This document shows positions 1,286 through 31,273 of a stretch of 64,000 bases of DNA, in pieces. Below the pieces are notes generated by a model. It was not told where the DNA came from and did no database searches. It worked only from the letters and a program-made list of their open reading frames with translations. Each line of letters begins with the position of its first letter. Position 1 is the stretch's first letter. The translations under genes were made by a program, and so were the position numbers. Origin of the DNA: Planctomycetota bacterium (lineage in GTDB: Bacteria > Planctomycetota > UBA8108 > SXIK01); the NCBI GenBank assembly GCA_965223265.1, contig OZ244999.1:2432001-2496000 (forward strand), in the 5' to 3' direction.

Positions 1286-1894
1286 TCATCCGGGTATGAA
1301 CGGATCACCCTTCAGCCCGTGCTTGAGCGACTCATAGGTGCGTTGCAGCCGCCAATGGACGGTACTTCGGCTGATCTCCCGCTCCCGTGCAAACTTTGTG
1401 CGCTGCTGGTTGCGGTAGAACGTGGCGTCGAGAAGATCCCGGTCCATAGTGTCGAGACGCTCCTTGATCGCACGCTGTAGATCTCCGACGACTTCGAACA
1501 GCTGGCACAGATGATCAGGCTCGTGAAGGTTCGACGCGGGCAGCACTTCTCGAATCTTTTCCGACTGGCTGTAGGAGACTTCCGGCGGCCGCGGGGAGCG
1601 TCGGGAAGCGAACTCGACGCGGCGTCGATTGAACACGACGTGGCGGACGATCGACAGAATCAAACGTCTCATTGTTTTTTCGCACTGTGGCAGATTCAAA
1701 TCGCGGCGCCAAGCGACGATCAACGTCTCCTGAAAGAGATCGTCCACTTCGCAGCGTTTCAGTAGCGACCGCGACGCGCAGCGTGCAATGACGCGTCGGA
1801 TTTCATCTTCCACCGCGAGGATCATCTCAATCGATCCCACGCTGCCGTTGTGCTCCCTCCGCGCTCGGCGTCGACTCGACGTCGGAGTGCCCAT
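1286..1894 (-). CDS. ECF-type sigma-70 family RNA polymerase sigma factor
   Basis: Region 2 motif (VDDLFQETLIVAWR...IVRHVVFN) and region 4 HTH (FAREREISRSTVHWRLQR); GGGAG upstream of ATG at 1894. Confidence 0.8.
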   Translation of the reverse strand: MGTPTSSRRRARREHNGSVGSIEMILAVEDEIRRVIARCASRSLLKRCEVDDLFQETLIVAWRRDLNLPQCEKTMRRLILSIVRHVVFNRRRVEFASRRSPRPPEVSYSQSEKIREVLPASNLHEPDHLCQLFEVVGDLQRAIKERLDTMDRDLLDATFYRNQQRTKFAREREISRSTVHWRLQRTYESLKHGLKGDPFIPG

Positions 1895-2165
1895 GTCTTC
1901 TCCCCATCGTGGCTTGCTTGGTTTGCCCGTCATTCGATCCGTCGCTTGAGCACAATCTGCTCACTCGATCGACATCGAATCACCCAAAACGAAACGATAT
2001 GTTCGCTACCGCAGCGCGACTCCACCAGGAAACGAACGCTGCTGTTCAAGCGTGCCCACAGCTCGAGTTGATGGTTCCTCGTTCTCGATTTCACTAACCG
2101 TAGGGTGTGTCTGTGCGCTTCGCAAAAAAAAAATTGGAGGAGAATTTTTTCAAAAAACAGTGCGA

Positions 2166-2401: not shown

Positions 2402-4951
2402 GTGAGTCAACCATTCGTAGTTCATGATTTCAGGGCGCTCGCCATCTCTACCCGCGTCCTTCGCAAAGCTCCGGTGCAGAGCACGACCCCAAGTGAAGGC
2501 GGCATACGGGCGGCTCTACGATCCGCTAATGGGGCGAGGGTTGCGCCAATGGTGGCGTCGCATCCGGCAGCGCTGCGCTCGCAGCGACGCTGCTGCAGTC
2601 CGGTGCGCGGTCTCGTGATCGCCGCGGTCGCCGCCTTCGCCGTCGGGTATCCGAATACCTCTGTCCCTCAGGAGACGGACAGGGAACCAGAAGTTTCCGC
2701 CTCACCTGAGGATACGATCCAGCTCAATCTGCCCGGCGAAATTGAGCTCAAAGTCTTCGTCGACCTCGTGAGTCAGCAGCTCGGAGTGAGGATCCTCCAC
2801 GACGAACGTCTGAGCGGCAAGCGTCTGACGGTCAAAGCGCCGACCGACATCTCTAAGTCGTCGCTGCGCGGCATCTTGGAGAGTGCGCTGCGGATGAAGA
2901 ACCTCGCGTTAGTGGAGGCGGGGGAGCCCGGTTGGCTGAAGATCGTCGAGGCGCAGAACCTCGCAGCGGTTTCGAGTCCCGCGTCGAAGATGCCGGCAGA
3001 TCTCAGCACCGCCAACCCAGTGCGTGCTGTGACGCAGGTCTTTCAGCTCCGGCATGTTGCACCGTCCCGCGTGCAACAGGTGATCAAGCCATTCCTCTCA
3101 GACCGCGGCGACAACGCCATCAGCGTTGAGGAGCAGCGCATTCTCATCGTCACGGACTACGCCGGCAACATGAACCGCATCCAGGAGCTCGTCGATCTCG
3201 TCGATCGGAAGGCTCACACGGTCAGCGTCACCTTCATCGATGTCCAGCACCAAGCAGCGGCCGATGTTGCTGCAAATCTGACGGAAATCCTCGACGCCCA
3301 GCACAAAGCGGAAGGAGCGAGCGGCAAGCGGGAGGGCCTCGAGATTCTCAATCTGGAGCGCACGAATCAACTGATCGTGATTGCCGCACCGCCGATTCTG
3401 CAAGAGGTCGAGAGGCTTGCCAAGCAGGTCGACGTTCCGCTCGGACTTGAGACCAAGGTTTACCGATTCACGAGTGCCTCGGCAAAAGTCGTCGACCAGT
3501 TGCTGCGGAGCTTGGTGGCGCCACAGGCGCGCGATCGGTTGTATCAGGCCGCCGTCAACGAGCCCGCCAACAGTCTCGTCGTGACAACGACACCAGAGAT
3601 TCACGCACGTGTCGAGTCGATCAAGTCGAATCTGGATACGCAGCTGGCGAAGCGTGAGCGTTCGGTTCGTTTCTATAAACTCGCGAACGCGACAGCGGCA
3701 GAAGTTCTCTTTGCGATTCAAGCGATCGAAGGCGTCCAATCAAATGGAGTCGGGGGCGGACCCGGCTCAGGCCTCGGTCCCGGGAGTTCCTCGAGGCCAT
3801 CTCTGGATCCTATTGCTACGTCGCCAGTCGATCTGCCCGAAGGATTGACTCCCGAGCCACAAGTCCCCGCTGGACCGCCGTCCGATCAGGAAGCTGCGCC
3901 GCCGGACGCCGCGCCCCCGGGCGGCGCGCCGCTCGAGGAGACCTCTCTGCCGAATCGCACCGCGTCGTCGAGCCGTAGCGCGGTGGGCAGGTCAGGAAGT
4001 GCCCAAGGAGTCACCACCTCCCGCGGCCGGATCATCGCCGAGCCGAACACGAACAGCATTGTCGTCGTCGCTACGGACGAGGATCAAGAGATGTACGCAG
4101 AGCTGATCCGCAAGCTCGATCGTCGTCGTCCTCAGGTGCTCGTGGAGGTGACCCTCGTTACGCTCGACACGAGCGGCAGTTTCTCGCTCGGAGTGGAGCT
4201 CTCGCACGCCGACGAAGACGACGATGGGGACCCACGCGTTCTCAACTTCAGTTCGTTCGGACTGAGCGAAGTAGATCCAGCGACTGGACGACTGACGCTC
4301 GCGCCCGGCCTTGGATTCAATGGCGCGCTCATCAGCGAGGACATCGCCGACGGCGTCGTCCGCGCCTTGGCGACGAGCGGTCGGGCAAAAGTCACCTCGG
4401 CACCCAAGATCCTCGTCAACGACAACGCCTCAGGAACTCTCAATAGCGTCCAAGACGCGCCTTTTACCAGCGTCAACGCTTCGAATACGGTCGCGACGAC
4501 GAGCTTCGGCGGCTTTGAAAACGCCGGTACGACCATTTCGGTCACACCCCACATCTCCGAAGGAGAACACGTCAGGCTCGAGTACTCGATCACTCTGAGC
4601 ACCTTCACCGGAGATTCGGGTGACGGTATTCCGCCACCTCGGCAACGCAACGAAGTCGAGAGCGAAGTGACGATTCCCGATGGCCACACGATCGTCGTCG
4701 GTGGGCTGCACCGCTCTGATTTCAGTGAAACCATCACGAAGGTGCCAATCCTCGGCGACATCCCGATCCTTGGTTGGCTCTTCAGCAACCGATCGAAGAA
4801 CGACACCGCGTCGACGCTGTTTGTATTCATTCGGCCGGTGATCTTACGGCAAGACCAGTTCGAAGATCTGAAGTTCATTTCGTCCCTCGATCTCAGAGAA
4901 GCCGGAGTGGCGTCGAACTATCCTGCCAGTGAGCCAGTGCTGATCGATTGA
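2402..4951 (+). CDS. gspD: Type II secretion secretin (true start probably downstream of 2402)
   Basis: N0 and repeated N domains; secretin C-domain (RRPQVLVEV..., TKVPILGDIPILGWLF..LFVFIRPVI). Confidence 0.95.
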   Translation: MSQPFVVHDFRALAISTRVLRKAPVQSTTPSEGGIRAALRSANGARVAPMVASHPAALRSQRRCCSPVRGLVIAAVAAFAVGYPNTSVPQETDREPEVSASPEDTIQLNLPGEIELKVFVDLVSQQLGVRILHDERLSGKRLTVKAPTDISKSSLRGILESALRMKNLALVEAGEPGWLKIVEAQNLAAVSSPASKMPADLSTANPVRAVTQVFQLRHVAPSRVQQVIKPFLSDRGDNAISVEEQRILIVTDYAGNMNRIQELVDLVDRKAHTVSVTFIDVQHQAAADVAANLTEILDAQHKAEGASGKREGLEILNLERTNQLIVIAAPPILQEVERLAKQVDVPLGLETKVYRFTSASAKVVDQLLRSLVAPQARDRLYQAAVNEPANSLVVTTTPEIHARVESIKSNLDTQLAKRERSVRFYKLANATAAEVLFAIQAIEGVQSNGVGGGPGSGLGPGSSSRPSLDPIATSPVDLPEGLTPEPQVPAGPPSDQEAAPPDAAPPGGAPLEETSLPNRTASSSRSAVGRSGSAQGVTTSRGRIIAEPNTNSIVVVATDEDQEMYAELIRKLDRRRPQVLVEVTLVTLDTSGSFSLGVELSHADEDDDGDPRVLNFSSFGLSEVDPATGRLTLAPGLGFNGALISEDIADGVVRALATSGRAKVTSAPKILVNDNASGTLNSVQDAPFTSVNASNTVATTSFGGFENAGTTISVTPHISEGEHVRLEYSITLSTFTGDSGDGIPPPRQRNEVESEVTIPDGHTIVVGGLHRSDFSETITKVPILGDIPILGWLFSNRSKNDTASTLFVFIRPVILRQDQFEDLKFISSLDLREAGVASNYPASEPVLID

Positions 4952-4997: not shown

Positions 4998-6869
4998 TTG
5001 CATGGGGCGATGGGTTCCATGAAGCACGAGCCAACGAAGCATGCCCGTTCGCCCCACGACGTGCGGTTGATCGCCCCGCCACGCTGCGACGTTGAGCGCC
5101 GCCGCGAACGTGCCGACATCATTGACCGCACGGCAGAGCTAGACTCGGTCGATCAAGCGGAGAATATAGGCTCCGCGTCGTCGACTCCATCGCCCGACTC
5201 GGACGCCGACTCCACGCCAGCGCGAGAGATCCCTGGTCTGCGCGCTGTCAATTCAAGCCTTGGCGAGCATGAGCTGACATCGATCGCTGATTCCGCGGTG
5301 TCCTTCTCGCGCTGGCAAGACGTCGCCGAGCGTCTTGGCGTCTCGAGTATTGATGACGTTTCGAATTGCGTCGCCGACCCACGATTTGTTAGCCGCATCT
5401 CCATCCAGTACGCGCGGCAGCACGGTGTTCTTGGAGTCGATCGCCAAGGCCAGGGCTTGACGCTTCTCACGGCGACGCTCGAAGACTTCGACGTCTTCGA
5501 CGTGCTGGCTCGTTACCTTGGCGTCACCGTGACGCCATGCCTCGCACCGCGGCGCGCCATCGAGCGAGCCATCAATCAAGCCTACGAGCAGAAGAGCGGA
5601 GAGACAGAGGAACTCATCGGCACCATCGACCGCGACTCCGTGCTCGGTGAGCTGAATCAAGTGACGACGCGCGAAGACTTGCTCGAAACTTCAAGTCGCG
5701 CTCCCGTGATCAAGCTCGTGAACCTTCTGCTCTTCGAGGCGGTCAAGACTTACGCTTCGGACGTTCATATTCAGCCCTACGAAGACACGCTCGCTGTCCG
5801 CATGCGGATCGATGGCGTTCTCTTCGACATGTTCACGGTGCCAAAGGCGATTCAAGAGGAGGTCGCTAGTCGCGTCAAGATCCTCGGCAACATGAACATT
5901 GCAGAGAAGAGACTGCCGCAAGACGGCCGGGCGACGGTCAAAGTCGGTGAACGCGTCATCGATTTGCGTCTGTCATCAGTGCCGACGAGTCATGGTGAAC
6001 GCATTGTCATTCGGCTACTCGATAAGAGCGCGCGGCTCTACACGCTCGAGGAGATCGGCATGGACGCCGACACGCTCACCGCGTTTCGCGAACTTATTCG
6101 CGTCGAGCACGGGCTCGTGCTCGTGACCGGACCGACTGGTAGCGGCAAATCGACGACGCTCTACGCCGCGCTCACTGAGATCAACAACCGTCAGGGCAAC
6201 ATTATCACGCTCGAAGATCCGATCGAGTACCAGCTCGAGGGCATCAGCCAGATTCAAATTGCATCCAAAAAGGGGATGACGTTTGCGAGTGGACTCCGGA
6301 GCGTTCTGCGGCAAGATCCCGACATCATCATGGTCGGGGAAATCCGCGACGAAGAGACCGCCGTCATGGCGATCCAGTCAGCGCTCACAGGGCATCTCGT
6401 CTTCTCCACGCTGCACACAAACGATGCGGCGAGTGCGGTGACCCGGCTCCTTGACCTTGGGATCGAGCCCTACCTCGTGGCCAGCTCCGTGATCGGAGTG
6501 CTCGCGCAGCGACTCGTACGGCGCATCTGTCCGAACTGCGCCGAAGCGTACGCGCCCTCGCGTCGCGAGAAGCAGCAGTTGGAGCTGACCGCCGAAGCGG
6601 TGAGCGGGGCCCGCGTGCAGGTGGGGCGTGGTTGTCGTCGGTGTCGCACGACCGGCTACCAAGGGCGCGTGGGGCTCTTTGAGCTTCTTCCCACCAGCGC
6701 TCGCATCCGTGAGCTCGTGAGCGCCCGCGCCACGGCAGCGGAGATCAAGGACGCCGCACTCGACGCCGGCATGCGCGCGCTCCGCGACGACGGTGTTGAG
6801 AAGGTTCTCCGCGGCGCCACGACGATTGAAGAGGTGAAGCGCGTCACCATCGCGAGAAGAGCATCGTAA
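4998..6869 (+). CDS. gspE: Type II secretion ATPase GspE/PulE
   Basis: ASDVHIQP, Walker A GPTGSGKSTT, TLEDPIEY, RQDPDIIMVGEIRD, CPNC/CRRC zinc motif. Confidence 0.97.
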   Translation: MHGAMGSMKHEPTKHARSPHDVRLIAPPRCDVERRRERADIIDRTAELDSVDQAENIGSASSTPSPDSDADSTPAREIPGLRAVNSSLGEHELTSIADSAVSFSRWQDVAERLGVSSIDDVSNCVADPRFVSRISIQYARQHGVLGVDRQGQGLTLLTATLEDFDVFDVLARYLGVTVTPCLAPRRAIERAINQAYEQKSGETEELIGTIDRDSVLGELNQVTTREDLLETSSRAPVIKLVNLLLFEAVKTYASDVHIQPYEDTLAVRMRIDGVLFDMFTVPKAIQEEVASRVKILGNMNIAEKRLPQDGRATVKVGERVIDLRLSSVPTSHGERIVIRLLDKSARLYTLEEIGMDADTLTAFRELIRVEHGLVLVTGPTGSGKSTTLYAALTEINNRQGNIITLEDPIEYQLEGISQIQIASKKGMTFASGLRSVLRQDPDIIMVGEIRDEETAVMAIQSALTGHLVFSTLHTNDAASAVTRLLDLGIEPYLVASSVIGVLAQRLVRRICPNCAEAYAPSRREKQQLELTAEAVSGARVQVGRGCRRCRTTGYQGRVGLFELLPTSARIRELVSARATAAEIKDAALDAGMRALRDDGVEKVLRGATTIEEVKRVTIARRAS

Positions 6870-6904: not shown

Positions 6905-8107
6905 ATGGCCCTCTTTCATTACAGAGCTTTCGACGGCGGCATGGTCGAGGTCAGCGGCACGATCGTCGCCGACTCGCCACGCCATGCTCGGGACACCCTC
7001 CGCGGCAAGGGGTTTCTCGTCGAGCATGTCGAGCCACTCCGCGAGGTGCGGCGACGGGCCGCGAAGCTCGTCTCGCGAGCTCCAAACTCAGCCCGTCTGA
7101 CAGAGTTGATTCGGGAGCTTTCGACCCTCCTGGCGGTCGACATCCCGCTTCTCCAAGCTCTCGACACTGTGATTCAGCAGCAGCGCGGCCACTTTCGTGA
7201 CGTGCTCCTTCGCCTACGCGAGCGCGTTGCGGGCGGCGCCAGCTTAGCCGAGAGCATGCGAGCGGAACCGATCGTCTTTGACGACCTCACCGTCAATATC
7301 ACCGAGGTCGGCGAACGATCCGGGACGCTCGACGAGGTCCTCACGCGCCTCGCGGAATTCAAGGAGCGCGCGGGCATGCTCAAAGGCCGGATCGGGAACG
7401 CACTCATCTATCCAGCGATCGTTCTCTCTATGGCTTTTCTTATCGCTCTGCTCCTCATGACGTTCGTCGTCCCAAATATCCTCGAGCCGCTCGTCGAAGC
7501 CGGCGGCGAGTTACCGCTCGTCACGGAGGTGGTGAAGAGCATGAGCGATGTTTTGATCAACTACTGGTGGCTGTTGGTCGTGGCGGGCGGCTGGGCCGCG
7601 GCGACCGTCGTCTTCTTTCTTCGCAGCGAACGTGGCCGTCTTCTCTGGCACCGCCTGCAGCTTCGATTGCCAATGATCGGCGGCATGGTGCGGCGCCAGT
7701 CGATGGTTAGGATCGGCATGATCATCGCGACGCTCATGCGGAGCGGCATCGCATTTCTTGAGGCACTGCAGATCGCCAAGCGGTCGACCTCAAACCGGGT
7801 CATGCGAGCGGCTCTGGACGACTGTGAGACGGCGGTGACCGCGGGCCGTGACATCTCCGAAGCGCTCGACAAAACGGGGGCGTTTTCACCGACGGTCGTG
7901 CAGGTGTTCGCGGTGGGGCAGCAGTCCGGTCGACTGGAAGCGATGCTCGAGCGTCTCGCAGTCGACTATGACCAACAGCTTCAGAGTCAAGCGCAGAGAC
8001 TCACGGCGCTCCTCGAGCCGGTGATGATTCTGATCCTCGCGTTCGTGGTTGGGTTCATCGCGTTTGCCACCATCCTTCCAATTCTGGAGGCAGGAAATGT
8101 TTTATGA
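6905..8107 (+). CDS. gspF: Type II secretion inner-membrane platform protein GspF
   Basis: Two T2SSF domains (GERSGTLDEVL, GQQSGRLEAML, ALIYP, LEPVMIL). Confidence 0.95.
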   Translation: MALFHYRAFDGGMVEVSGTIVADSPRHARDTLRGKGFLVEHVEPLREVRRRAAKLVSRAPNSARLTELIRELSTLLAVDIPLLQALDTVIQQQRGHFRDVLLRLRERVAGGASLAESMRAEPIVFDDLTVNITEVGERSGTLDEVLTRLAEFKERAGMLKGRIGNALIYPAIVLSMAFLIALLLMTFVVPNILEPLVEAGGELPLVTEVVKSMSDVLINYWWLLVVAGGWAAATVVFFLRSERGRLLWHRLQLRLPMIGGMVRRQSMVRIGMIIATLMRSGIAFLEALQIAKRSTSNRVMRAALDDCETAVTAGRDISEALDKTGAFSPTVVQVFAVGQQSGRLEAMLERLAVDYDQQLQSQAQRLTALLEPVMILILAFVVGFIAFATILPILEAGNVL

Positions 8108-8555
8108 CAGCACCGTCCATCGTCGCCGGCGAGTGCTCGAGATTGGCGATGATTCGGGTCGTCGGCCGGCCGGCAGTGGCTTCTCTCTCATCGAGGTCAT
8201 GGTCGTCTTGGTGATCATCGCGCTTCTTGCCAGCATCGTTGGCATCAATGTCAAAAGTCACATCGACCGGGGCCGCCAGAAGAAGGCGCGCGCCGATATC
8301 TCGGTTTTGACCACGCAAGTCAAGCTCTTCTACGCCAACACTGGACGTTATCCCACGGCGAGCGAAGGGCTGCAGGTGCTTGTTCCGGAATACGTCGAGA
8401 CGCTGTCGAGAGATCCGTGGCGGAACGACTATCAGTACGAAATCCCTGGCCGCGGCGGCGCGTTCGACGTGATCTGCTTCGGCGCCGATGGACGTGAGGG
8501 CGGCGAGGAAAGCGCTCAGGACATCACCAACTGGGACCTCGACGAAGAGGGGTAG
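8097..8555 (+). CDS. gspG: Major pseudopilin GspG
   Basis: GFSLIEVMVV prepilin motif, GRYPT..GL..L, DPW.NDYQY, GADG.EGGE..DI.NW; GGAGG before ATG 8097. Confidence 0.95.
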   Translation: MFYDSTVHRRRRVLEIGDDSGRRPAGSGFSLIEVMVVLVIIALLASIVGINVKSHIDRGRQKKARADISVLTTQVKLFYANTGRYPTASEGLQVLVPEYVETLSRDPWRNDYQYEIPGRGGAFDVICFGADGREGGEESAQDITNWDLDEEG

Positions 8556-8563: not shown

Positions 8564-9082
8564 GTGAACGAACGAGGTTTTACTTTGATCGAAGTCGTCG
8601 CCGTGCTTGTTCTCACGGCGCTCCTCGCCGGCGGTGTCGCCGTCTCACTTCGCAGGGCGCTGTACAGCGTTCAGCTCCGAGACGTCATTGGTCGTCTTGT
8701 GGCGTTTGATGTCGAGCTGCGAGCGGCGGGCGTCGCGACGGGCGAACCGCAGGCGCTGCGGTACTCACTCGACGAGAACCGCGTGGCGCGTGTTCGTGAT
8801 CGTGACCGCGGCTCACGCGCGACTGTCGAGACGTACGCGTTGCCGCAGCGCTTCGACCTGCGGAAAGTGTGGCTCTCGGGTCACGGCGAGCGTCCGGTCA
8901 TCAGCGGCACCGAGACCATCGGAAGCTCGGCCGACGGACAGACGCCGTCCTATGCGGTCTCTGTCGCGGACGGCACCACAGGGCAGACGGCGACGCTCGT
9001 GTTCTCAGGGCTTTCAGGGCAAATCACAAGGCTGGACGATGAACAAAAGATCAGCGAGATCTTTCGACTCTTGGCGCGGTAG
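8564..9082 (+). CDS. Minor pseudopilin (GspH-like)
   Basis: RGFTLIEVVAVL prepilin motif; position after gspG. Confidence 0.8.
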   Translation: MNERGFTLIEVVAVLVLTALLAGGVAVSLRRALYSVQLRDVIGRLVAFDVELRAAGVATGEPQALRYSLDENRVARVRDRDRGSRATVETYALPQRFDLRKVWLSGHGERPVISGTETIGSSADGQTPSYAVSVADGTTGQTATLVFSGLSGQITRLDDEQKISEIFRLLAR

Positions 9083-9482
9083 TACCCTTGTCGAAGTGAT
9101 CGCCGGGCTCGGTTTGCTCGGGACGCTTCTCGTCGCTCTCGTTCTGGCGCGCTCCCGGCTGCTGGAGCAGAATGCGCTCGCGCAAAAAAAGATGGACGCC
9201 GCCGCCGTCGCCGAACGTCTGCTTGCGAGTTGGTGGACGAGCGGCGAGCCCATGCCACGAGAGGAGAGGGGTGAGGCGGATGGGCACCGCTGGCAGACGC
9301 GAGTTGTGTCGAACGATGCGCTGCGCGCCTGCGACGGAGAAATCCTTCGCCTCGAGCTGCTTGCGCAGACACCAGCACTCAGCGGTGACCCACTCGTGGC
9401 GGTGGAAATCGCCCTCCCGCGCCCCGAGGCGGACGCGAAAGACTCCAATGCAACTGGAGTGCGAACAGGAGTCGTTCGATGA
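9039..9482 (+). CDS. Minor pseudopilin (GspI-like)
   Basis: RGSTLVEVIAGL prepilin-like motif; ATG at 9039. Confidence 0.75.
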   Translation: MNKRSARSFDSWRGSTLVEVIAGLGLLGTLLVALVLARSRLLEQNALAQKKMDAAAVAERLLASWWTSGEPMPREERGEADGHRWQTRVVSNDALRACDGEILRLELLAQTPALSGDPLVAVEIALPRPEADAKDSNATGVRTGVVR

Positions 9483-11313: not shown

Positions 11314-11811
11314 ATGCGCGTTGAAACCTTGAGTCGACTCTGCTGGAGCGGTAGCTGCACACTGACGTTGCTCGGCGGCGCGGCGATCTGGTATGCCTTC
11401 GCTCGACCACTCGACCTGCCGCCGCAGGGTAAACAGACGACCGCCGAAGTCGTGCCCGTGGCAAGCGAAGTGAGCCGCGAAGAGCCTGAGCTTGAAGCAC
11501 TCCTGGCAGCGTGCAGGGTGCCGCTGCGCAGGCCGATTTTCGACCCACCGCCGCCGTTACCGCCCGCGCCGCCGCCGAAGATCGTGAGACCACCGCCGCC
11601 TGTGAAACTCCTTGGCACCGTCCTTGGCAGCGGCGAACCCATGGCGATGATCGCCGACGCCAGTGGTGCGGTTGAGTTCAAGAAGGTTGGCGACGGCATC
11701 GGCGCGAAAGACAGCCAGGCGGTAATTGCCGCGATCGAGGCCTCCAGGGTCGAAGTCGCGCACGAGGGACGCACGATCGAACTGCGGATCGAAGGAAAGG
11801 AAAAACGCTGA
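11314..11811 (+). CDS. GspC-like / PilP-like assembly protein
   Basis: N-terminal TM, Pro-rich linker, KLLGTV...AMI...VGD HR-like domain. Confidence 0.6.
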   Translation: MRVETLSRLCWSGSCTLTLLGGAAIWYAFARPLDLPPQGKQTTAEVVPVASEVSREEPELEALLAACRVPLRRPIFDPPPPLPPAPPPKIVRPPPPVKLLGTVLGSGEPMAMIADASGAVEFKKVGDGIGAKDSQAVIAAIEASRVEVAHEGRTIELRIEGKEKR

Positions 11812-23976: not shown

Positions 23977-24585
23977 ATGCACGAAGTAGAGTACGTTGAT
24001 GGATTGGAGGGCCCGGTTCTGGCCCATAATTGGGACGTTGGCGGATTGGCCTCCGCGCTGCGAACTGGCTTGTGCGATGCAGCTTCGTGGTGTCTTTCGG
24101 AATTGAGAAACGACCCGGAAGATCCCGCGACTCTGTTTCGGTCGCCGGAACTGAGGCCGCCACGAGTCGGCGAATTGACCAGATCATGGGAGTGCGTTCC
24201 GTTGATTCGTGAATGCGTTGAGTATGTCGCTCACATGCGATCGCGATTTCTTCGAGACAGAAGAGTCGAGCAAGTGTCATTGGAGTTCGCGTTGCAGTCT
24301 GGTTGGATCCTTGGCCACGCCATTTCGCGTTGTACGGCTGACCACACAGCTCACACAGTTTCTCCAGTGTTCGACAGGTGGGACAACATTGGCTGGGATT
24401 GTTGGGTAATGTTTGGATCGACGACTGATTTCACGTCGCCACCGAGTGAATTCGACTACACTCTGTCGTGGATACCGAAAAAGATAATCCCTCTTGTCGA
24501 CGAGGCGATGTTGGGCCCTGATGATTGTCTTGTCTGGATTCCTCCGAAACGGCTTGATCTAGATTCCGAGTGGGTCAAGTTGTAG
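23977..24585 (+). CDS. Hypothetical protein downstream of Rhs1; candidate immunity protein
   Basis: Intact 202-aa ORF, duplicated (frameshifted) at 624-1219. Confidence 0.7.
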   Translation: MHEVEYVDGLEGPVLAHNWDVGGLASALRTGLCDAASWCLSELRNDPEDPATLFRSPELRPPRVGELTRSWECVPLIRECVEYVAHMRSRFLRDRRVEQVSLEFALQSGWILGHAISRCTADHTAHTVSPVFDRWDNIGWDCWVMFGSTTDFTSPPSEFDYTLSWIPKKIIPLVDEAMLGPDDCLVWIPPKRLDLDSEWVKL

Positions 24586-24615: not shown

Positions 24616-26153
24616 CATGCGGCATCGGATAACACGCGAAGCGCTGTAGTAGTGAAACTTGCGGCGCCGCACATGCGTGATCGGTTAGCCGTAAGCTCCA
24701 TCGTAGTCATCGCTTACGACTCGAGCGATTCGTGCGTATAGAAAAAGAGGCCAAAATCTCGGACACTTCGTGACTCACCAAAGAAACGGAGTGAAGAGAT
24801 CATGGCCACAAGGAAGTGTATCGAACTACGATCCTGTCTCAAGAGCCTCTTTCCCGACAAGTTGATCCGCGATGAGTCTCGAGCGAGTGGTTTTGTGCTC
24901 CGGGAGCGAAAGATCAGGGCGGTTCCGTTCTTTTGGACATTGGTCCTGGGCTTTGGGGTTGGATCGGAGCGGACGATCTCTGCGCTGCGTCGAGCCTACG
25001 AACGCTCGACGTCGTCGACCGTTGTTCCGTCCTCGTTCTACGATCGTTTCGACGCCAGTCTTGTGCGCTTTCTGAAAGCTGCGGTGAAGCGATCGTTGGC
25101 AACCTTTCAGGCATCGTGGACTGAAATCGAGGAGCGCGTCGGAAAGTTTACGGACTTGATCATCGTTGACTCCACAGTGATGAAGCTTCACGAAAAGCTC
25201 AGAGGATCGTTCCCAGGGTGCCGAACGAACTCAGCGCCGGCTGCGGCGAAACTTCATGCAGTCCTCAGTGTGCGCGGCAAAGGAGGCTCGACGGTCGCTC
25301 TCACTTCGGAGCGAAGTGCGGACCTGCGAAAACTTCGCACAGGTCCGTGGGTTCGAGACCGCCTTCTCCTCTTCGATCTCGGCTACTTCAAGTGGCAGCT
25401 CTTCCATCGCATCAGGAAAAACGGTGGCTTCTTCCTGACTCGATTGAAGCAAAACGCCAACCCGACAATTACTAAAATCCATCGCAGTGTTCGCGGCAAC
25501 TCGATCCCCCTCGTGGGGGAGAGACTTCAAGACGTCCTACCTCGATTGAAAAGAGAAACTCTCGACGTTGAGATCGAAGCCTCGTTTGCAACCCGCAAGC
25601 ACCGAGGCCGAGCGCGTCGCGCTCACGAGCGTTTTCGACTTGTCGCCATCCGCAACGAAGACGACGGCCAGTATCACCTCTACGTCACCAACGTCGAACA
25701 CGACGATCTCATCGCCGAGGAGATCGCCAACGTCTACCGCTATCGCTGGGAAATCGAACTCATCTTCAAGGAGCTAAAGTCCGGCTACCGAATGGACCAG
25801 CTGACGAGCCGGCGCCCCCACGTGGTGGAAGCGATGATCTACTGTGCAATTCTGACACTTGTCGTCAGCCGAGAGCTTCTACGCCACCTTGCCTCACGAG
25901 TCCGCAGCGGTGCCGAGCGAGTCGCTGCGGGGCGTTGGTGGAAGCTTCTGGCGAACTACGCTCAGGAGCTTCAACTCCTCGTCGTTCGACCACGCCGAGA
26001 CGCTCACCTCGCCGCTGGACTCGTCGACACCTTCCTGCACGAAATTGTCGACCCTCATACTGACAGACGCCCACTCTTGAGTCAGGTGTTTCGTTGATGT
26101 GGCGCCGTAAGTTTCATCTCTACAGAGCTTTGCGCGTTATCCGATGCCGCATG
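24616..26153 (+). mobile_element. IS4-family insertion sequence (ISH8-like group)
   Basis: Long imperfect terminal IRs CATGCGGCATCGGATAAC...GTTATCCGATGCCGCATG; no target duplication visible. Confidence 0.9.
24802..26097 (+). CDS. IS4 family transposase
   Basis: VDST, FDLGY, YRYRWEIELIFKELK (YREK motif). Confidence 0.95.
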   Translation: MATRKCIELRSCLKSLFPDKLIRDESRASGFVLRERKIRAVPFFWTLVLGFGVGSERTISALRRAYERSTSSTVVPSSFYDRFDASLVRFLKAAVKRSLATFQASWTEIEERVGKFTDLIIVDSTVMKLHEKLRGSFPGCRTNSAPAAAKLHAVLSVRGKGGSTVALTSERSADLRKLRTGPWVRDRLLLFDLGYFKWQLFHRIRKNGGFFLTRLKQNANPTITKIHRSVRGNSIPLVGERLQDVLPRLKRETLDVEIEASFATRKHRGRARRAHERFRLVAIRNEDDGQYHLYVTNVEHDDLIAEEIANVYRYRWEIELIFKELKSGYRMDQLTSRRPHVVEAMIYCAILTLVVSRELLRHLASRVRSGAERVAAGRWWKLLANYAQELQLLVVRPRRDAHLAAGLVDTFLHEIVDPHTDRRPLLSQVFR

Positions 26154-29100
26154 AGGACACGGAAGACTCCGCAGGGAACGAGGCGTGCCGTCGCATCTAT
26201 GGGTTGAACAAACAGGGTAAAGTGCTTCGCAGGGCGTTTATTGAAGACCCGATGGCGACGACGCTGACAGCTTGGTGCGATTCGGTCAAGATCAACTCCT
26301 CCAGCCGCGTCACGGAGGTTCGAAGGCCGTCAGCGCACGAGGTGACGAGCAACTCCCTGATGACGAAGTTCCTAGATCCTGAAGGGGGATCGCCCACCGC
26401 CGGTCAGAACGACATCGACACGCTGAAACCGAGCGACGGCGCGATCTACGTCTACGACCACAACCCCGATGGGCGACGTACGTGGACTCGGATCAAGAAG
26501 GGGCGAACCGGAACCGCATACTATGTCAACGGAACAAAGTGGGGTGACGGCCTCGTGGCTGATCAACCCAAGCACCTCCCCGTAGCAACCTACAGGTTTC
26601 CGACGAAGACAGATGATTCGGACGACTTGTCGCGGGTCGACACGAGCTTCGCCTACGATTTCTGGGATGCGGATGAGACCCAGATCAAGGTGAAGACAAC
26701 GACGCTACCGGAAATTCCTACTAGTCAGAACGGCGCCGGCACCGGCAACGCCACGGTACTCAAGGAGTATCATGATGAGCTCGGGCGACTTCGTTGGGTG
26801 AAGGATGGAGAGGGATACATCACCTATCACTCGTATCACCCAGAGCTTGGCAGGCGCGCCTACACCATGATCGACGTCGACACCGACGCTCTACGGAGCG
26901 ACATCACCTCTGGGGTGAGTGGCAAGTATGTGAAATGGGAGGACGACTCGGGCGGCAGCGACGCGCCGAGCGGATTTCTGAACGGCGGCAACGACAACCT
27001 CGAGATTGTCACCAAGGCCGAATATGACGAGCTTGGCCGCACCGAGCTTGAGATCGACGCCAAAGGCTTCAAGCACTACACCGTCTACCAGGACGGTCGC
27101 ACCCTGGAGTTTCCGTATTGGGATGGATCGGACGGGAAACCGAAACGTGCCATTCAAGTCGTGGAAACAAATGATGCAGGCAAGCCCGTCGATGTCTTCA
27201 CGGTGTCGCCCTCTCAGGCGACGTCGACCGGGAGCAATCCGGACAAGGTTCCGAGCGGGGTCTCGGATGCAGACGACCAGACCAACTACCTGAGCTGGAC
27301 AAACTTTGGCTACGATTCCCAGACTGGCGAGCTCGTCGAGGAAGATCGTTACTTTGACATTCCCGGCGCCGGGTCCGGGACGCTTTCGACACACTTCCAT
27401 CGCATAGCCTACAAGTACGATGAACTCGGCCGTCGCGAGTTCGTCATCGAGGTCTCCAGCGGCACGCTCACGAGCAACGGTGTCGAGCAAATCACGCAGA
27501 ACGTCTACGATGTGCGTGACCGCATCACGTGCATCAAACGTGGTGTCAGCGGCGATTCACACAATCTGGGTTCGAGCTATGCAATCCCCACGAGCGGCAT
27601 CGATACGGTCGAAGAGGTCGATTACGACGACGGTGGTGTCGGCGACGGGTACGTCACAACTCGTAGGAGATACCATACGACAACCGATTTCACGGGTACG
27701 AAGGTCCACATCACCTACAAAGGCGAACGGCGCGGGGTCGAGCGTTTTTTCGGTAACGGAACCACCGAGACCGCGGTCGGACCGTTTATTGTCTACGACA
27801 TCAACTGGGAAGGAAACAGAACCGCGGCAGGTATCTACGATGTCGAGCCCAGTTGGGAAGGCAGCGGTTCCAGCGTCCTCGCTGATGAGGGATACACCGA
27901 TTTCGCGAATACGCAAGAAAGCAATCGAAGGGCGCTAAAGAAGAACGCTTACGACGATCTCGGACGCATCTACCAGACAGAGATTTGGACGATCAACGCA
28001 TCGACCGGGCAAAAAGGGGTTAAGTTTCTTATCGAGCGATTCTACGATCGTAACGACAGCATTGTCGCCCAAACAACAAAGAACGGGACGTTCGTCGAGC
28101 ATGCCTATGACGGAGCGGGAAGGCGTTATCAGTCCCGGGTCGTCGCCGACAACATTGCTACGAACCCCTATTCTTCAGGAGGGTTCGTTTACCGCGATCC
28201 AAAGCCGGATCCGGAAGTGCGAGACATGGACGCTTTGACGTCAGGCGGTGGTGACGATGATGTTGTCGAGGTAAAGCATCAAGAACTCGACGCTTCCGGG
28301 CGAATCATCGAGAGTCATGTCTTTGAAGCGAACCACGACGACACTGACGGGATCGACCTTACAGACGACGACGACTACGTACGTCTCTCAAAGTTCTTCT
28401 GGTATGACGGGAAAACGGATTTCTTAACGACGAGCGCCAACTACGGCAGTGGGGACACCGCTACGGGTGCGGGTACATGGGATCGCTTCGATATACCTGC
28501 ACCAGCCTCAGCGCCTACTTCCAGCAGTGATCAGACGCTCGTGACGGAGTTTTTTTTTAACGATTCGAGCTACCTAGAGACGGTCACCAGGCCCATTGGC
28601 GCTTCCGGCGAGAGCGTCGAAAAGATCTTCTACGACGATCTCGGCCGCAAAAAATACGTAGCGGAAAATTTCGTCAATTTCATAGCCTCAACCGAGTCTG
28701 GAACAGGAGGAACCGACAAATCAGAGGATCGCGTTACGTACATCTCGTACAACGGTCTGAATCAGATCACCGAGCGGGCCGCGCTCGACGCTAATGGGGA
28801 CGGCTCGACGAGCGACGAACAGATCACGACCCGCCTCTACGAAGATTCGCACGATGCGGCTCTCGTCACCAGCATCATATATCCCGACTCTACCGATACG
28901 GATTCTTCGGGTTCGGACCAAGTGAAATTCGAGTGGAACCTTGACGGCTCGCTCGAGCGCAGGACCGATCAACTCGAAACAGTGATCGAGCGCACGTACA
29001 ACAATCGTCGCCAGGTGGAGTTTCAGAAGGTCTCGACGCTCGCGAGCGGCGTTGACGGGCATGTGCGTTCGGTGAAACGAGAGTACGACTCGCTGGCGCG

Positions 29101-31273
29101 CCTCGAGAAGGTCACTTCATACGCCAACAGCGACGGCACGGGCACGGTCCGCAACCAGATCCTCTTCGAGTACAACGACCTTGGTCAGGTCAAGAAGTCT
29201 TGGCAGTCGCACGAGGGGAACAAGATTTCCACGACGCCGAAGGTTGAGTACGACTATGACCTCTCGGCTCTCAACAGTATCTACGATGATGGTGCACGTC
29301 TGAACTATGTTCAGTACCCCGATGGCCGCAAGATCCATTACGGCTATTCGACGGGCGGTTCGGCCTCTGACCGTATGAGCCGCGTTGTGTCGATCGCCGA
29401 GGATAACGGCTCGGGCTCTCCGGCCACGACACCGCTGGTCAACTACGCCTTCAATGGTCTAAGCCGGTTGGCTGAGACGAATTTCGACGAGCCTGACGTC
29501 CGTCTGACGTACCACCAGGGAGACGGCGACGGGGACTACGAGGGCTTTGACCGTTTCGGTCGCCCAAAAGACCATTTCTGGGACGGCTACAGTACAACCT
29601 CGGATGTTGACCGCTTCAAGTACGTCTACAACCAGGCCGGTACTGTTACGCACCGGATTATCGATTCGTCAATCCACTCGACGCAGGACAAGGACCAGGT
29701 TTTCGAGTACGACGGACTCGAGCGTCTGACTTCTTATGACCGGCGGGTGCTCGTTGGATCGATCAACTACGAGCAGGACTATACGCTTGATCAACTCGGC
29801 AACTGGACGGACTTTGTCGAAAAGACAAACGGCACGACGGATCTCGATCAGGACCGCGGCCATAACGACGTCAATGAGATCACCTCCGTCAGTGCCCCGC
29901 CGATGCAGCCGCAGTGGATCACACCGCTCTTCGACGCCGCCGGGAACATGACCGAAGGGCCGAAGCCGGGCGACGAGACAACGAAGCACCTCTATGTCTA
30001 CGACGCCTGGAATCGGCTCGTCAAAGTGAAAAACGCAGCAGGCACGACAACGCTGGCGACGTACGAGTACGACGGCTTGAATCGCCGGATCCGCGTCGAG
30101 GATAGCTCTCAGGAGAGCTGGGACTACTACTATAACGAAGACTGGCAGGTCATCGAGATCCGTGAGGACGCCGACCCCGATCCGCTCAAGCAGTACGTCT
30201 GGCACCCGTACTACATCGACGCGCTGGCGGTGCGCTTTTGGGACCAGCACACAACGGGAACGCCGACGACGCACTTCTACACCCACGATGCCAACATGAA
30301 CGTTACGGCGCTTTGCGGCGACGACGGAGGCGTGAAGGAACGATACGAGTACACTCCGTACGGCGAGGTAAGTATTCTGACCGCGGCTTTCGCAGAGAGG
30401 GGCTCGAGTCTCTATGATCAAGAAGTGCTTCACACAGGGCGCCGACGGGAGCCCATCTCTCGTCTTTACCACTGCAGAAACCGTGAGTATCATCCAAATC
30501 TCGGGAGATGGACTCGGCGCGACCCACGGGGGTTCGGAGACGGCATGAATTTGTACGAGTTCGTACGGGCCCAACCGGTTGGTAGAGTAGATCCGTACGG
30601 TCTCGAGAGTAAGATCTACTTCGAAGCGGAAGTTAAGATTCTTGAGTTGGATCTCATTTATGATGATGTCATGTATCATGCACGTATAGCCGATACATTC
30701 CGCTGTGAAAAAGACGTCCCGGTGGTTGGTCACGCGGCCCCCGAGACAATAGTCGATGAAGGGGATTCTCAAACAAACAATCCCCCTCATGTTGAACCGA
30801 ACGCAGATTGTGGAAAGAACCAGAGTCCTGGAGTTGTGTATTCATGGAACGGGTCTTCGATTGAGGACGACGCGTTAGGGATGGAAATCGCTGCGGGGCT
30901 CGGTGCTGCTGGTGCGGCAGGCGCTGGCGCTGTTTTCGGCTTCGGAGGTGGGGCCATAGCACTCGGAGCCCCTGCCGGTTGGCCCGGGGCTCTCGCGGGT
31001 GCTTCCGCTGGTGGTACCATTGGGGGCGCCGCAGGGGCTGGTGTTGGAGGGGCGGCTGAGGAATTACTTGATGACGAGTGGAGTTTGCACTGGCGAGTGA
31101 GGTTTAGGCTCTGCTGCATCTGCGAAGAAGCGAGAGAGGGGTTCATTGGGCCCGCAAGCCCGGATCCAGTTTACGAACCTAGGTTGAAGTTCCTCGAGGC
31201 AAACCTTAGCTTTGATTCGTTTGGGGAGGATGAGTTCGTGGCGGAGTCTTTCTGGGCTGCACGAGAACGCTAA
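26154..31273 (+). pseudogene. Rhs protein 2, lacking about 495 N-terminal residues, with a different C-terminal tip
   Basis: Sequence right after the IS4 end aligns to Rhs1 from EDTED (nt about 18585); core very similar; ends ...DPYG plus a divergent tip. The ORF's ATG (26144) lies inside the IS IR. Confidence 0.9.

What the first reader, a model, noticed from the sequence alone, without database searches (positions are those of the whole stretch)
1286..31273. Candidate T2SS-delivered Rhs polymorphic toxin system
Seen: a T2SS-like operon (secretin, ATPase, GspF, five pseudopilins, C/L/M-like genes, TPR lipoprotein) is followed on the same strand by a TPR protein and two Rhs paralogs with one core and different tips; an ECF sigma is divergent. 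Rhs1 starts with a signal-peptide-like segment, and I see no PAAR, VgrG or other T6SS gene in the window. Known: characterised Gram-negative Rhs toxins mostly use T6SS (PAAR/VgrG) or Tc complexes, and T2SS exports folded periplasmic proteins. Inference: Rhs is exported by Sec, folds in the periplasm and exits or is displayed through this dedicated T2SS. No prepilin peptidase is in the locus, so one would be needed from elsewhere.
Basis: partly seen in the sequence, partly recalled or inferred. Interest (0 to 1): 0.88.

Follow-up and report, generated by a model that had tools for sequence, protein, structure and literature searches.

The report
Secreted Rhs toxin beside general T2SS
A planctomycete's ordinary type II secretion operon sits next to a mobile-element-rich island encoding a signal-peptide-bearing Rhs toxin and a broken copy of it; export through that secretion system is plausible and has precedents, but it is not shown and the system is not dedicated to the toxin.

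Summary
The described genes are all present. The locus is a complete T2SS operon (gspD-E-F-G-H-I-J-K-C-L-M plus a TPR lipoprotein). A periplasmic TPR protein, a 2161-aa Rhs protein with a signal-peptide-like start, and a second Rhs follow it.

Three refinements matter:
- The T2SS ends at a terminator-like hairpin. About 860 bp of repeats separate it from the lower-GC Rhs unit.
- Rhs2 is not a full paralog. An IS4 element cut off its first 495 codons, and its ATG lies inside the IS end.
- The same T2SS operon recurs in 44 of 44 fetched Planctomycetota loci, 35 of them with no Rhs in range. It is therefore a general system, not a dedicated one.

In favour of T2SS export, 9 of 44 loci carry Rhs-related toxin genes. 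Five of these have small toxins (signal peptide, then Rhs-core tail) inside or abutting gsp genes. Rhs1's relatives also keep signal peptides. There was no genome-wide background control.

T2SS-linked Rhs is already in print (PMC7259588; bioRxiv 2025.05.08.652813).

Verdict: partly supported, a new member of a known kind, of moderate interest.

The parts
1286..1933 (-). Divergent ECF-sigma-like gene (weak match); not conserved next to related T2SS operons
   Evidence: NCBIfam TIGR02937 gives 2e-8 at 33.9 bits, below its 42.9 cutoff. No Pfam sigma domain at E<=0.01. No tblastn hit in the 44 loci.
2402..4951 (+). gspD secretin
   Evidence: Pfam Secretin 3e-39, Secretin_N x4 and GspD N0. TIGR02517 1e-101 at 339 bits, below its 351 cutoff. 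39-66% identity to the loci.
4998..6869 (+). gspE ATPase with an MshEN-type N-terminal domain
   Evidence: TIGR02533 at 636 bits, above its 630 cutoff. T2SSE 8e-131 and MshEN 7e-12.
6905..8107 (+). gspF inner-membrane platform
   Evidence: T2SSF 5e-55. TIGR02120 2e-102, below its cutoff.
8049..8555 (+). gspG major pseudopilin (the mature part starts about residue 43 of the ORF)
   Evidence: TIGR01710 at 106 bits, above its 89 cutoff. T2SSG 2e-24 and N_methyl.
8564..11310 (+). Four minor pseudopilins: gspH-like 8564-9082, gspI-like about 9063-9482, gspJ-like 9479-10234, gspK-like 10231-11310
   Evidence: N_methyl motifs and weak GspH and GspK matches. GspI-like N-terminus read in frame. tblastn hits at the same operon positions in the loci.
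11314..13834 (+). gspC-like 11314-11811, gspL-like 11811-13310, gspM-like 13307-13834
   Evidence: T2SSC 3e-5, TIGR01709 5e-15 and GspM_XpsM 9e-8, all below cutoffs. GspL has 1247 relatives at E<=1e-3.
13880..14689 (+). TPR lipoprotein, the last gene of the T2SS operon (PilW/Tgl-like, a possible secretin pilotin)
   Evidence: TPR families. TIGR02521 4e-13, below its cutoff. Present as the last operon gene at 41-57% identity in 39 of 44 loci. 940 clusters at E<=1e-15.
14690..15545 (.). Spacer with two terminator-like hairpins (14692-14708, 14904-14920) and a 37-71 nt direct repeat in three copies; GC 0.53
   Evidence: No Rfam family matched.
15546..17027 (+). TPR protein (493 aa) with an N-terminal signal or anchor segment, immediately upstream of Rhs1; function unknown
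   Evidence: TPR families. Start read. Only generic TPR look-alikes. No homolog in the 44 loci.
17100..23585 (+). Rhs1 (2161 aa): signal-peptide-like 1-38, disordered linker to about 95, Rhs cocoon about 100-1978 ending in DPSGL, then a 183-aa basic helical C-terminal tip
23977..24585 (+). Candidate immunity gene (202 aa, acidic, no signal peptide, no family match)
   Evidence: Position only.
24616..26153 (+). IS4-family insertion sequence (transposase 24802-26097) with terminal inverted repeats of about 55 nt
   Evidence: NF033592 8e-71. Inverted repeats aligned.
26153..31273 (+). Rhs2: a 5'-truncated Rhs copy matching Rhs1 residues 496-1978 at 82% identity, with its own 222-aa glycine-rich tip; its ATG at 26144 lies inside the IS end; no signal peptide; no immunity gene follows
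31456..32294 (+). IS3-type orfA/orfB directly after Rhs2; the start of a mobile-element-rich stretch
   Evidence: HTH_Tnp_1 and rve domains. Further elements.

Best explanation
The window holds two units that lie side by side.

Unit 1 (2402-14689) is the general type II secretion operon of a Phycisphaerae-like planctomycete. It comprises gspDEFGHIJKCLM plus a TPR lipoprotein and ends at a terminator-like hairpin.

Unit 2 (15546-31273 and beyond) is a lower-GC polymorphic-toxin island punctuated by insertion sequences. It contains:
- a periplasmic TPR protein;
- a full-length Rhs toxin (Rhs1) with a candidate immunity gene;
- a second Rhs copy that an IS4 element has decapitated.

Proposed mechanism, step by step:
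- Rhs1 is made with a cleavable Sec signal peptide. The sequence shows this only by a crude rule; it is conserved in the family.
- Rhs1 folds in the periplasm into a cocoon of about 215 kDa that encloses its self-cleaved 20-kDa basic, partly hydrophobic tip. The cocoon fold is predicted. Self-cleavage is inferred from the conserved DPxGL core.
- Rhs1 is then passed across the outer membrane, most plausibly by the cell's general T2SS. This step is inferred, and I put it at about 0.4 on its own. It rests on precedents in Xanthomonas and on the recurrence of signal-peptide Rhs-type toxins in and around related gsp operons.

The T2SS is not dedicated to Rhs. Rhs2 is most likely a non-exported remnant or a recombination reservoir.
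For: Anatomy:
- Pfam and NCBIfam assignments.
- Terminator-like hairpin 3 nt after the TPR-lipoprotein stop, with a second copy 212 nt on.
- GC is 0.627 for the T2SS, 0.564 for Rhs1 and 0.498 for its tip.
- The IS4 inverted repeats bracket 24616-26153, and Rhs2 homology starts exactly at the IS end. The missing first 495 codons are nowhere in the window.

General T2SS:
- 44 of 44 loci found with a GspL profile are Planctomycetota-type operons with the same gene order.
- 35 of 44 have no Rhs-related sequence.
- Downstream neighbours vary from rpoBC and yidC to transposases.

Sec export:
- Rhs1 and 13 of its 21 relatives pass a crude signal-peptide rule.
- 3 more relatives are borderline or start inside the hydrophobic core.
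- The other 5 gene models start downstream of that region.
- The family has DUF6531 and Rhs repeats and no PAAR.
- Residues 100-600 fold as Rhs cocoon wall (pTM 0.76; best Foldseek hit 8qjc, 1.5e-11). No separate delivery domain exists.

Toxin nature:
- The tips vary after DPxGL: Rhs1 versus Rhs2, Tox-REase-7 in P0024, Ntox16 in L038.

T2SS link:
- 9 of 44 loci carry Rhs-related genes.
- In L013 and L035 a module of signal peptide, Rhs tail and toxin plus a lipoprotein gene is the insert in the only 2 of 29 measurable gspE-gspF gaps above 1 kb.
- L004 has three such pairs directly before gspF. L042 has one directly before gspG. L003 has one before gspE.
- All 7 small toxins have an AxA-type signal peptide that runs straight into the Rhs tail.

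Precedents:
- Bcn-A, a 1398-aa RHS bacteriocin, loses activity in an xpsD (gspD) mutant (PMC7259588, passages).
- Xanthomonas and Ralstonia Rhs families are linked to gspG (bioRxiv 2025.05.08.652813, passages).
Against: - There is no genome-wide background. I could not count how many Rhs-tail genes these genomes hold, so 9 of 44 may partly reflect sheer abundance. In simple per-base terms, the density inside the operons is not higher than in the flanks (3 flank cases in about 274 kb of downstream flank).
- 6 of the 9 positive loci fall in one GspL clade of 11 rows. The window is in the other part of the tree, weakly paired with two rows that have no Rhs (quick tree).
- The three downstream Rhs genes in relatives (L020, L029, L038) are convergent and 2-4 kb away. 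L020 has a transposase in between.
- One operon-internal insert is a methyltransferase, not a toxin (L031).
- None of the 120 listed TPR-lipoprotein relatives (of 940) shares a contig length with any of the 21 Rhs1 relatives, so the Rhs side shows no linkage in what was visible.
- Rhs1's n-region is poorly charged (+1/-2 in the 15 residues before the hydrophobic core).
- A folded cocoon of about 215 kDa may be at or beyond what a secretin passes. This last point is recalled knowledge, not tested.
Confidence: 0.5

Rival explanations
1. Chance neighbours. The Rhs island inserted into a variable region next to a housekeeping T2SS operon. Rhs1 is Sec-exported but then stays periplasmic or membrane-anchored, or leaves by a T2SS-independent route such as vesicles, lysis or another outer-membrane pathway.
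For: - Terminators and a spacer separate the two units.
- GC drops across the boundary.
- IS4, IS3, IS21, ISL3 and four recombinase genes lie in and after the island.
- The 3' flank of this operon is variable in relatives and holds transposase or integrase genes in at least L003, L009, L020, L033 and L039.
- 35 of 44 loci have no Rhs.
- There is no same-strand downstream Rhs elsewhere (0 of 31).
- The background density of such genes was not measured.
Against: - Signal-peptide Rhs-tail toxin modules sit inside or directly against gsp genes in five separate loci. Their positions and orientations differ, so they are hard to attribute to one inherited accident.
- Published T2SS dependence or linkage of Rhs toxins exists in other phyla.
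Confidence: 0.35
2. One reading: this T2SS is a dedicated export machine for the Rhs proteins, under the divergent ECF sigma factor.
For: Same strand and close proximity in the window. No T6SS or Tc genes in what was scanned.
Against: - The operon is the conserved T2SS of a large clade and mostly occurs without Rhs.
- The sigma-like gene, the TPR protein and the immunity candidate have no counterpart at any related locus.
- The two units are probably separate transcription units.
- Rhs2 has lost its export signal.
Confidence: 0.07
3. Rhs1 is not an antibacterial toxin but a surface or periplasmic YD-repeat protein with another role, such as adhesion or a eukaryote-directed effector.
For: - Neither C-terminal tip matches any toxin family.
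- The tip model is of low confidence (pLDDT 58.8).
- The immunity candidate is assigned by position only.
- Ankyrin-repeat genes occur in the window.
Against: - The layout is that of a classic polymorphic toxin: conserved core, DPxGL, variable tips.
- Relatives carry the known toxin domains Tox-REase-7 and Ntox16.
Confidence: 0.08

Closest known systems
Xanthomonas perforans Bcn-A (RHS-family bacteriocin; PMC7259588, passages read)
   Same: A large YD-repeat toxin with a downstream immunity gene. Its activity is found in supernatant and is lost in an xpsD (gspD) mutant, so it is an Rhs toxin that depends on the general T2SS.
   Different: It is from Proteobacteria and has 1398 aa rather than 2161. 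The passages read do not report it next to the xps operon. No detectable sequence relationship was tested here.
gspG-linked Rhs families XRhs F VIII (Xanthomonas) and RRhs F II (Ralstonia) (bioRxiv 2025.05.08.652813, passages read; its supplements could not be seen)
   Same: Rhs toxins without T6SS linkage that are genomically associated with a T2SS gene and predicted to be T2SS substrates. The authors state that this is not functionally confirmed.
   Different: There the neighbour is a single gspG gene. Here it is a whole gsp operon in another phylum, and the linkage is seen in only 9 of 44 related loci.
'T2SS/Sec-dependent' class of polymorphic toxins (Zhang et al. 2012, PMC3482391, passages read)
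   Same: The layout is signal peptide, then RHS repeats, then a variable C-terminal toxin. Planctomycetes are listed among carriers of many such toxin domains.
   Different: That class is defined by the signal peptide alone, and its table lists no signature neighbour genes. Here the gsp genes are physical neighbours.
T6SS Rhs effectors (for example RhsA 7q97 and the Salmonella bongori Rhs core 8qjc)
   Same: Cocoon fold (Foldseek 1.5e-11 for residues 100-600). Rhs-associated core with DPxGL.
   Different: No PAAR, VgrG or chaperone genes. A signal peptide takes their place. The core is about 1880 aa, against about 1000-1400 aa for the solved chains listed.
Tc toxin TcB-TcC cocoons (TcdB2-TccC3, YenB/YenC2)
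   Same: A YD-repeat cocoon with the same C-terminal core.
   Different: No TcA gene and no TcB-type N-terminal domains were found in the window or the family.

Membership tests
Type II secretion system (Gsp) | Outer-membrane secretin GspD with N0 and N1-N3 domains | tested here: met
   Secretin, four Secretin_N stretches and GspD N0. TIGR02517 1e-101, slightly under its cutoff.
Type II secretion system (Gsp) | GspE ATPase and GspF platform | tested here: met
   TIGR02533 above its cutoff. T2SSF 5e-55.
Type II secretion system (Gsp) | Major pseudopilin GspG plus minor pseudopilins H, I, J and K | tested here: met
   GspG above its cutoff. H and K give weak matches. I and J are assigned by prepilin-type N-termini and by operon position.
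Type II secretion system (Gsp) | Assembly-platform proteins GspC, GspL and GspM (these distinguish T2SS from type IV pili) | tested here: inconclusive
   Matches exist but all are below curated cutoffs: T2SSC 3e-5, GspL 5e-15, GspM 9e-8. No PilM, PilN, PilO, PilP or PilT was found among the scanned ORFs.
Type II secretion system (Gsp) | Prepilin peptidase GspO/PilD | tested here: not met
   No Peptidase_A24 among the ORFs scanned in the window. It may be encoded elsewhere in the genome, as is common (recalled).
Rhs / YD-repeat polymorphic toxin | YD/RHS repeats forming a cocoon | tested here: met
   RHS_repeat. Residues 100-600 are modelled as Rhs wall (pTM 0.76) with Foldseek hits to Rhs cores.
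Rhs / YD-repeat polymorphic toxin | Rhs-associated core ending in DPxGL, followed by a variable tip | tested here: met
   TIGR03696 above its cutoff in both copies. Identity ends at DPSGL in Rhs1 and DPYGL in Rhs2.
Rhs / YD-repeat polymorphic toxin | Recognisable toxin domain and cognate immunity gene | tested here: inconclusive
   No family matches either tip or ORF 23977-24585. Relatives carry Tox-REase-7 and Ntox16.
T6SS-delivered Rhs | N-terminal PAAR or prePAAR, or a neighbouring vgrG or Eag chaperone | tested here: not met
   None in Rhs1, in its 21 relatives, or in the ORFs scanned around it.
Tc (ABC) toxin complex | TcA pore component and TcB N-terminal half | tested here: not met
   No such domains in the scanned ORFs of the window.
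Sec-dependent ('T2SS class') polymorphic toxin (PMC3482391) | Cleavable N-terminal signal peptide | tested here: inconclusive
   Only a crude hydrophobicity, charge and AxA rule was applied, not SignalP. Rhs1 passes with a weakly charged n-region. 14 of 22 family members pass, 3 are borderline and 5 models are truncated.
T2SS substrate | Secretion lost in gsp mutants (no sequence signature is known; recalled) | not testable with these tools
   Only gene neighbourhood could be examined.

The most novel reading that the evidence does not exclude
In a lineage of Phycisphaerae-type planctomycetes, the general T2SS doubles as an interbacterial toxin exporter. Its operons repeatedly take up small toxins whose mature N-terminus, directly after the signal-peptide cut, is the last 40 or so residues of an Rhs core (..GRF..RDP.GY.DG.NLY...DP.GL). 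Each toxin is paired with a periplasmic lipoprotein as candidate immunity protein. That Rhs tail could be more than a recombination handle. It could be the element that marks both these mini-toxins and full-length signal-peptide Rhs proteins such as Rhs1 for the T2SS. That would be a first sequence-level T2SS cargo tag and an answer to how signal-peptide Rhs toxins cross the outer membrane.
Probability: 0.15. Interest if true: 0.8.

Novelty: new member of a known kind. Interest (0 to 1): 0.42.

Why it matters
How Rhs toxins that carry a signal peptide, and no T6SS or Tc features, leave a diderm cell is still poorly documented. The one genetic result I found is Bcn-A in Xanthomonas. A 2025 preprint adds gspG linkage in two proteobacterial genera.

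This window adds a case from a distant phylum. The follow-up adds a sharper clue: signal-peptide toxins with an Rhs-core tail are embedded between gspE and gspF, or directly before gspF or gspG, in several planctomycete genomes. If a proper background test confirms the enrichment, it would point to T2SS as a widespread export route for polymorphic toxins. It would also give a compact module of about 200-300 aa for testing T2SS cargo recognition.

If the enrichment fails, the window is simply a toxin island that landed beside a housekeeping operon.

Tried and rejected
- **Profile too diverse.** The GspL profile of 46 sequences was too diverse for the search for related loci (error). A 10-sequence profile worked.
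- In some searches the TPR-protein query was translated one base out of frame (15547 instead of 15546). Its 'no hit' there is void. It was repeated correctly, still with no hit better than E=0.5.
- **Copy-number estimate failed.** I searched with the first 70 residues of the L042 toxin to estimate how common proteins of the signal-peptide-plus-Rhs-tail type are. It gave only itself and one weak hit among 61 candidates. A 40-residue motif cannot reach significance in that database, so this says nothing about copy number.
- **Contig-length matching.** I compared contig lengths between 120 listed TPR-lipoprotein relatives (of 940) and the 21 Rhs1 relatives and found no match. This is inconclusive because 820 were not shown.
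- **Atlas look-alikes.** The TPR protein gave generic TPR clusters only. The Rhs1 tip gave no usable hit. One search failed on length.
- **Tip fold.** The single-sequence fold of the Rhs1 tip had pLDDT 58.8 and was all-helical, too poor for a fold search.
- **Complex prediction.** The Rhs1 tip with ORF 23977-24585 gave no verdict (after queue refusals).
- **Other negatives.** No Rfam family in 1-33000. The L035 transglutaminase/TPR protein is unrelated to the window's TPR protein.
- **Clustering test.** The parsimony test on the quick GspL tree does not show clustering of Rhs-positive loci (9 changes against a shuffled mean of 9.1). The post hoc clade contrast of 6 of 11 against 4 of 33 (Fisher p=0.008) should be read with that in mind.
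- **Not available.** The neighbourhoods of the 21 Rhs1 relatives therefore stayed unchecked.


Full report
**Observation.**
- Pfam and NCBIfam identify a secretin (2402-4951), GspE (4998-6869, TIGR02533 at 636 bits against a cutoff of 630) and GspF (6905-8107).
- They also identify the major pseudopilin GspG (in ORF 8049-8555, above its cutoff) and GspH-, J- and K-like pseudopilins.
- A fifth, GspI-like pseudopilin is readable in frame at about 9063-9482.
- Weak GspC, GspL and GspM matches cover 11314-13834. A TPR lipoprotein lies at 13880-14689.
- Downstream come a TPR protein (true start 15546, 493 aa, hydrophobic N-terminus), Rhs1 (17100-23585, 2161 aa) and Rhs2 (26144-31273). Both Rhs proteins have an Rhs-associated core above the NCBIfam cutoff.
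- The divergent gene 1286-1933 is only weakly sigma-like and falls below its cutoff.
- No PAAR, VgrG, Tc or prepilin-peptidase domain turned up in the 22, 29 and 65 ORFs scanned. Small ORFs in 36-64 kb were not scanned.

**Refinements that change the picture.**
- *Separate units.* The T2SS operon ends 3 nt before a GC-rich hairpin with a T-rich tail (14692-14708). A second copy lies 212 nt on, and a 37-71 nt direct repeat occurs three times in the 856-bp spacer. Eight terminator-like sites were found in 14500-17300, against 3.0 +/- 1.8 in shuffles. The T2SS and the TPR-Rhs1 pair are therefore probably separate transcription units.
- *Composition.* GC is 0.627 for the T2SS, 0.533 for the spacer, 0.645 for the TPR gene, 0.564 for Rhs1 and 0.498 for its tip.
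- *Rhs2 is not a whole paralog.* It aligns to Rhs1 residues 496-1978 at 82% identity (1221 of 1488). An IS4 element (NF033592 8e-71) with terminal inverted repeats of about 55 nt occupies 24616-26153. Rhs homology starts exactly at its right end. The annotated ATG at 26144 lies inside the inverted repeat. The missing 5' part is nowhere in the window.
- *Consequences for Rhs2.* It has no signal peptide. No immunity-sized ORF fits between its stop and the IS3 element at 31456.
- *Mobile context.* Beyond Rhs2 lie IS3, IS21 and ISL3 genes, a serine recombinase and three tandem tyrosine recombinases.

**Rhs1 itself.**
- The first 600 residues, modelled with 19 relatives, gave pTM 0.76. Residues 1-95 are disordered: the signal-like segment plus a Cys/Gly/Ser-rich linker. 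Residues 100-600 form confident beta structure.
- Foldseek matches this region to Rhs cocoon cores (8qjc 1.5e-11; also 7q97, teneurins and TcB-TcC). There is no separate delivery domain.
- By sequence, only the C-terminal core resembles solved Rhs and Tc proteins.
- The mature protein would be about 235 kDa. The tip after DPSGL is 20 kDa with pI 9.5. It has two hydrophobic, Cys-rich segments and a Lys-rich helix. Its model is poor (pLDDT 58.8) and no family or atlas hit exists.
- The Rhs2 tip has a glycine-rich hydrophobic stretch with nine GxxxG spacings. A membrane-active role for both tips is my guess only.
- ORF 23977-24585 is an immunity candidate by position alone.

**Family and signal peptide.**
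- Residues 1-500 of Rhs1 find 21 non-self relatives of 1515-2302 aa, at 28-44% identity. The few that are named are called Planctomycetaceae or Planctomycetales MAG proteins.
- Pfam shows DUF6531 near the N-terminus in 14 of the 21, Rhs repeats and variable tips (Tox-REase-7 in P0024, DUF4347 in P0008). None has PAAR.
- I applied a crude rule of my own: a hydrophobic window, a basic residue upstream and a small -1/-3 site. It passes 14 of 22 proteins, including Rhs1.
- Three more (P0009, P0010, P0012) are borderline or begin inside the hydrophobic core. The other five gene models start further downstream.
- Rhs1's own n-region is weakly charged (+1/-2). This rule is not SignalP.

**Is the T2SS dedicated?**
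- GspL has 1247 relatives at E<=1e-3, but none above 39% identity.
- A 10-sequence GspL profile retrieved 44 loci from species-representative genomes. All are Planctomycetota by record title, mostly Phycisphaerae and Tepidisphaerales, except one labelled Anaerolineales.
- tblastn with the window's proteins shows the same order, D-E-F-G-H-I-(J-K-C)-L-M-TPR lipoprotein. GspE is 50-66% identical and the lipoprotein 41-57%.
- The lipoprotein alone has 940 clusters at E<=1e-15.
- Downstream neighbours differ from locus to locus. They include rpoBC, yidC, acetate kinase, glycosidases and, in several loci, transposases or integrases.
- The sigma-like gene, the TPR protein and the immunity candidate have no counterpart in any locus.

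**An unexpected recurrence.** Nine of the 44 loci contain Rhs-related sequence.
- Full-length Rhs genes lie convergent to the operon. In L020 the gene is 4.2 kb past the lipoprotein gene, with a transposase between. In L029 it is 2.3 kb past.
- L038 has an Rhs C-terminus with Ntox16, also convergent.
- L027 has an Rhs N-terminal fragment abutting a truncated gspE. This may be an assembly artefact.
- The other five loci hold small proteins of 218-313 aa. They consist of a classical signal peptide ending in AxA, then immediately the last 40 or so residues of an Rhs core, then a variable domain. The L042 tail is 68% identical to Rhs1 residues 1940-1977.
- These small toxins sit between gspE and gspF (L035 on the same strand, L013 on the opposite strand). 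They also occur as three tandem pairs directly before gspF (L004), directly before gspG (L042), and before gspE (L003).
- Of 29 loci where the gspE-gspF gap could be measured, 2 exceed 1 kb, and both hold such a module.
- The gene next to each toxin starts with a lipoprotein-type signal in 7 of 10 cases, judged by eye. One of these genes is a WG-repeat protein.

**Limits of that evidence.**
Enrichment is therefore not established.
- The three flank cases in about 274 kb of downstream flank already imply a high local density.
- One operon-internal insert is a methyltransferase (L031).
- On a quick GspL tree of 43 loci plus the window (L034 was dropped for a short ORF), six of the nine positives fall in one well-supported clade of 11 rows. 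None falls in the 11-row Tepidisphaerales clade.
- The window sits on a long branch next to L008 and L010, which have no Rhs. The parsimony test shows no clustering (9 changes against a shuffled mean of 9.1).
- A post hoc Fisher test of 6 of 11 against 4 of 33 gives p=0.008.
- From the Rhs side, none of the 120 visible lipoprotein relatives shares a contig length with an Rhs1 relative. This is inconclusive.

**Literature.** I read passages only, through text searches.
- Zhang et al. 2012 (PMC3482391) define a 'T2SS/Sec-dependent' class of polymorphic toxins by the signal peptide. RHS repeats are among its architectures, no signature neighbour genes are listed, and planctomycetes appear among the carriers.
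- Marutani-Hert et al. 2020 (PMC7259588) show that the 1398-aa RHS bacteriocin Bcn-A loses activity in an xpsD (gspD) mutant.
- A 2025 preprint (10.1101/2025.05.08.652813) links 180 Xanthomonas and 56 Ralstonia Rhs toxins to gspG and predicts T2SS translocation, noting that this is not functionally confirmed.
- A 2023 preprint (10.1101/2023.11.21.568195) reports T2SS-like loci upstream of giant genes in Omnitrophota.
- My searches listed no paper whose title or abstract start, as far as I read them, concerns Rhs-type toxins beside or inside gsp operons in Planctomycetota. I did not open the hits beyond the four papers above.

**Mechanism and verdict.**
- The best reading is a general T2SS operon lying next to a Sec-type Rhs polymorphic-toxin island.
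- Sec export of Rhs1 is likely (about 0.8 in my estimate).
- Passage through the T2SS is plausible but only inferred (about 0.4).
- A dedicated system is unlikely (below 0.1).
- A caveat from recalled knowledge: a folded cocoon of about 215 kDa may be near the size limit of a secretin channel. The 200-300 aa Rhs-tail toxins would be easy cargo.
- The finding is a new member of a known kind. The embedded mini-toxins are the part worth following up.

Noticed in passing
L035 3288-4070(+); L013 4595-5533(-); L004 293-1102, 1837-2715 and 3631-4521(+); L042 445-1098(+); L003 323-1171(+): A class of small secreted proteins (218-313 aa). A signal peptide ends in AxA and runs straight into the last 40 or so residues of an Rhs core, followed by a variable domain. 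They sit inside or directly against gsp operons, each next to a gene with a lipoprotein-type or membrane-anchor start. L004 has three tandem copies with near-identical starts and different ends.
   Followed up: partly
window 14681-15184: The spacer after the T2SS operon holds a 32-nt hairpin element in two copies (14681-14712, 14893-14924) and a 37-71 nt direct repeat in three copies (14787-14823, 15015-15051, 15148-15184), each ending in a small palindrome. No Rfam match. Function unknown.
   Followed up: partly
window 24616-26153: An IS4-family element whose right inverted repeat supplies an in-frame ATG for the truncated Rhs2 ORF. No target-site duplication is visible at its two ends, which suggests a deletion or rearrangement rather than a simple insertion.
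   Followed up: yes
window 41773-45051: Three tandem tyrosine-recombinase genes (41773-43062, 42950-44035, 44032-45051). The layout recalls 'recombinase in trio' elements (recalled name). An AAA_25 gene follows at 45550-46527. A serine recombinase (36233-38308, minus strand), IS21 IstB (40405-41202) and an ISL3 transposase (48518-49882, minus strand) lie nearby.
   Followed up: no
window 2-487 and 52937-54178: Two ankyrin-repeat proteins flank the region (Ank_2 7e-27 and 8e-49).
   Followed up: no
window 4998-6869 (GspE residues 122-199): GspE carries an MshEN-type N-terminal domain (7e-12) after an extension of about 110 residues. In some relatives this domain binds c-di-GMP (recalled), so the T2SS might be under second-messenger control.
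   Followed up: no
L008 and L010 (contig OY763327.1, 718643-739731 and 1161446-1182534): One Phycisphaeraceae genome carries two nearly identical copies of the whole T2SS operon about 440 kb apart (GspL end branches 0.05).
   Followed up: no
L037 (contig CAYNLG010000068.1): A contig labelled 'uncultured Anaerolineales' carries the planctomycete-type gspL-gspM-TPR lipoprotein genes. This is possibly a binning error or a gene transfer.
   Followed up: no
L035 2021-3220(+): Directly upstream of the embedded toxin lies a 400-aa membrane-anchored protein with a weak transglutaminase-like match (7e-4, below cutoff) and a TPR match. Zhang et al. 2012 describe inactive transglutaminase domains at the start of some signal-peptide RHS toxins. 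It is unrelated in sequence to the window's TPR protein.
   Followed up: partly
L027 30-863(-) and 797-1213(+): An Rhs N-terminal region runs divergently from a gspE that retains only residues 479-617. This is either a real rearrangement at the operon or a chimeric contig.
   Followed up: partly
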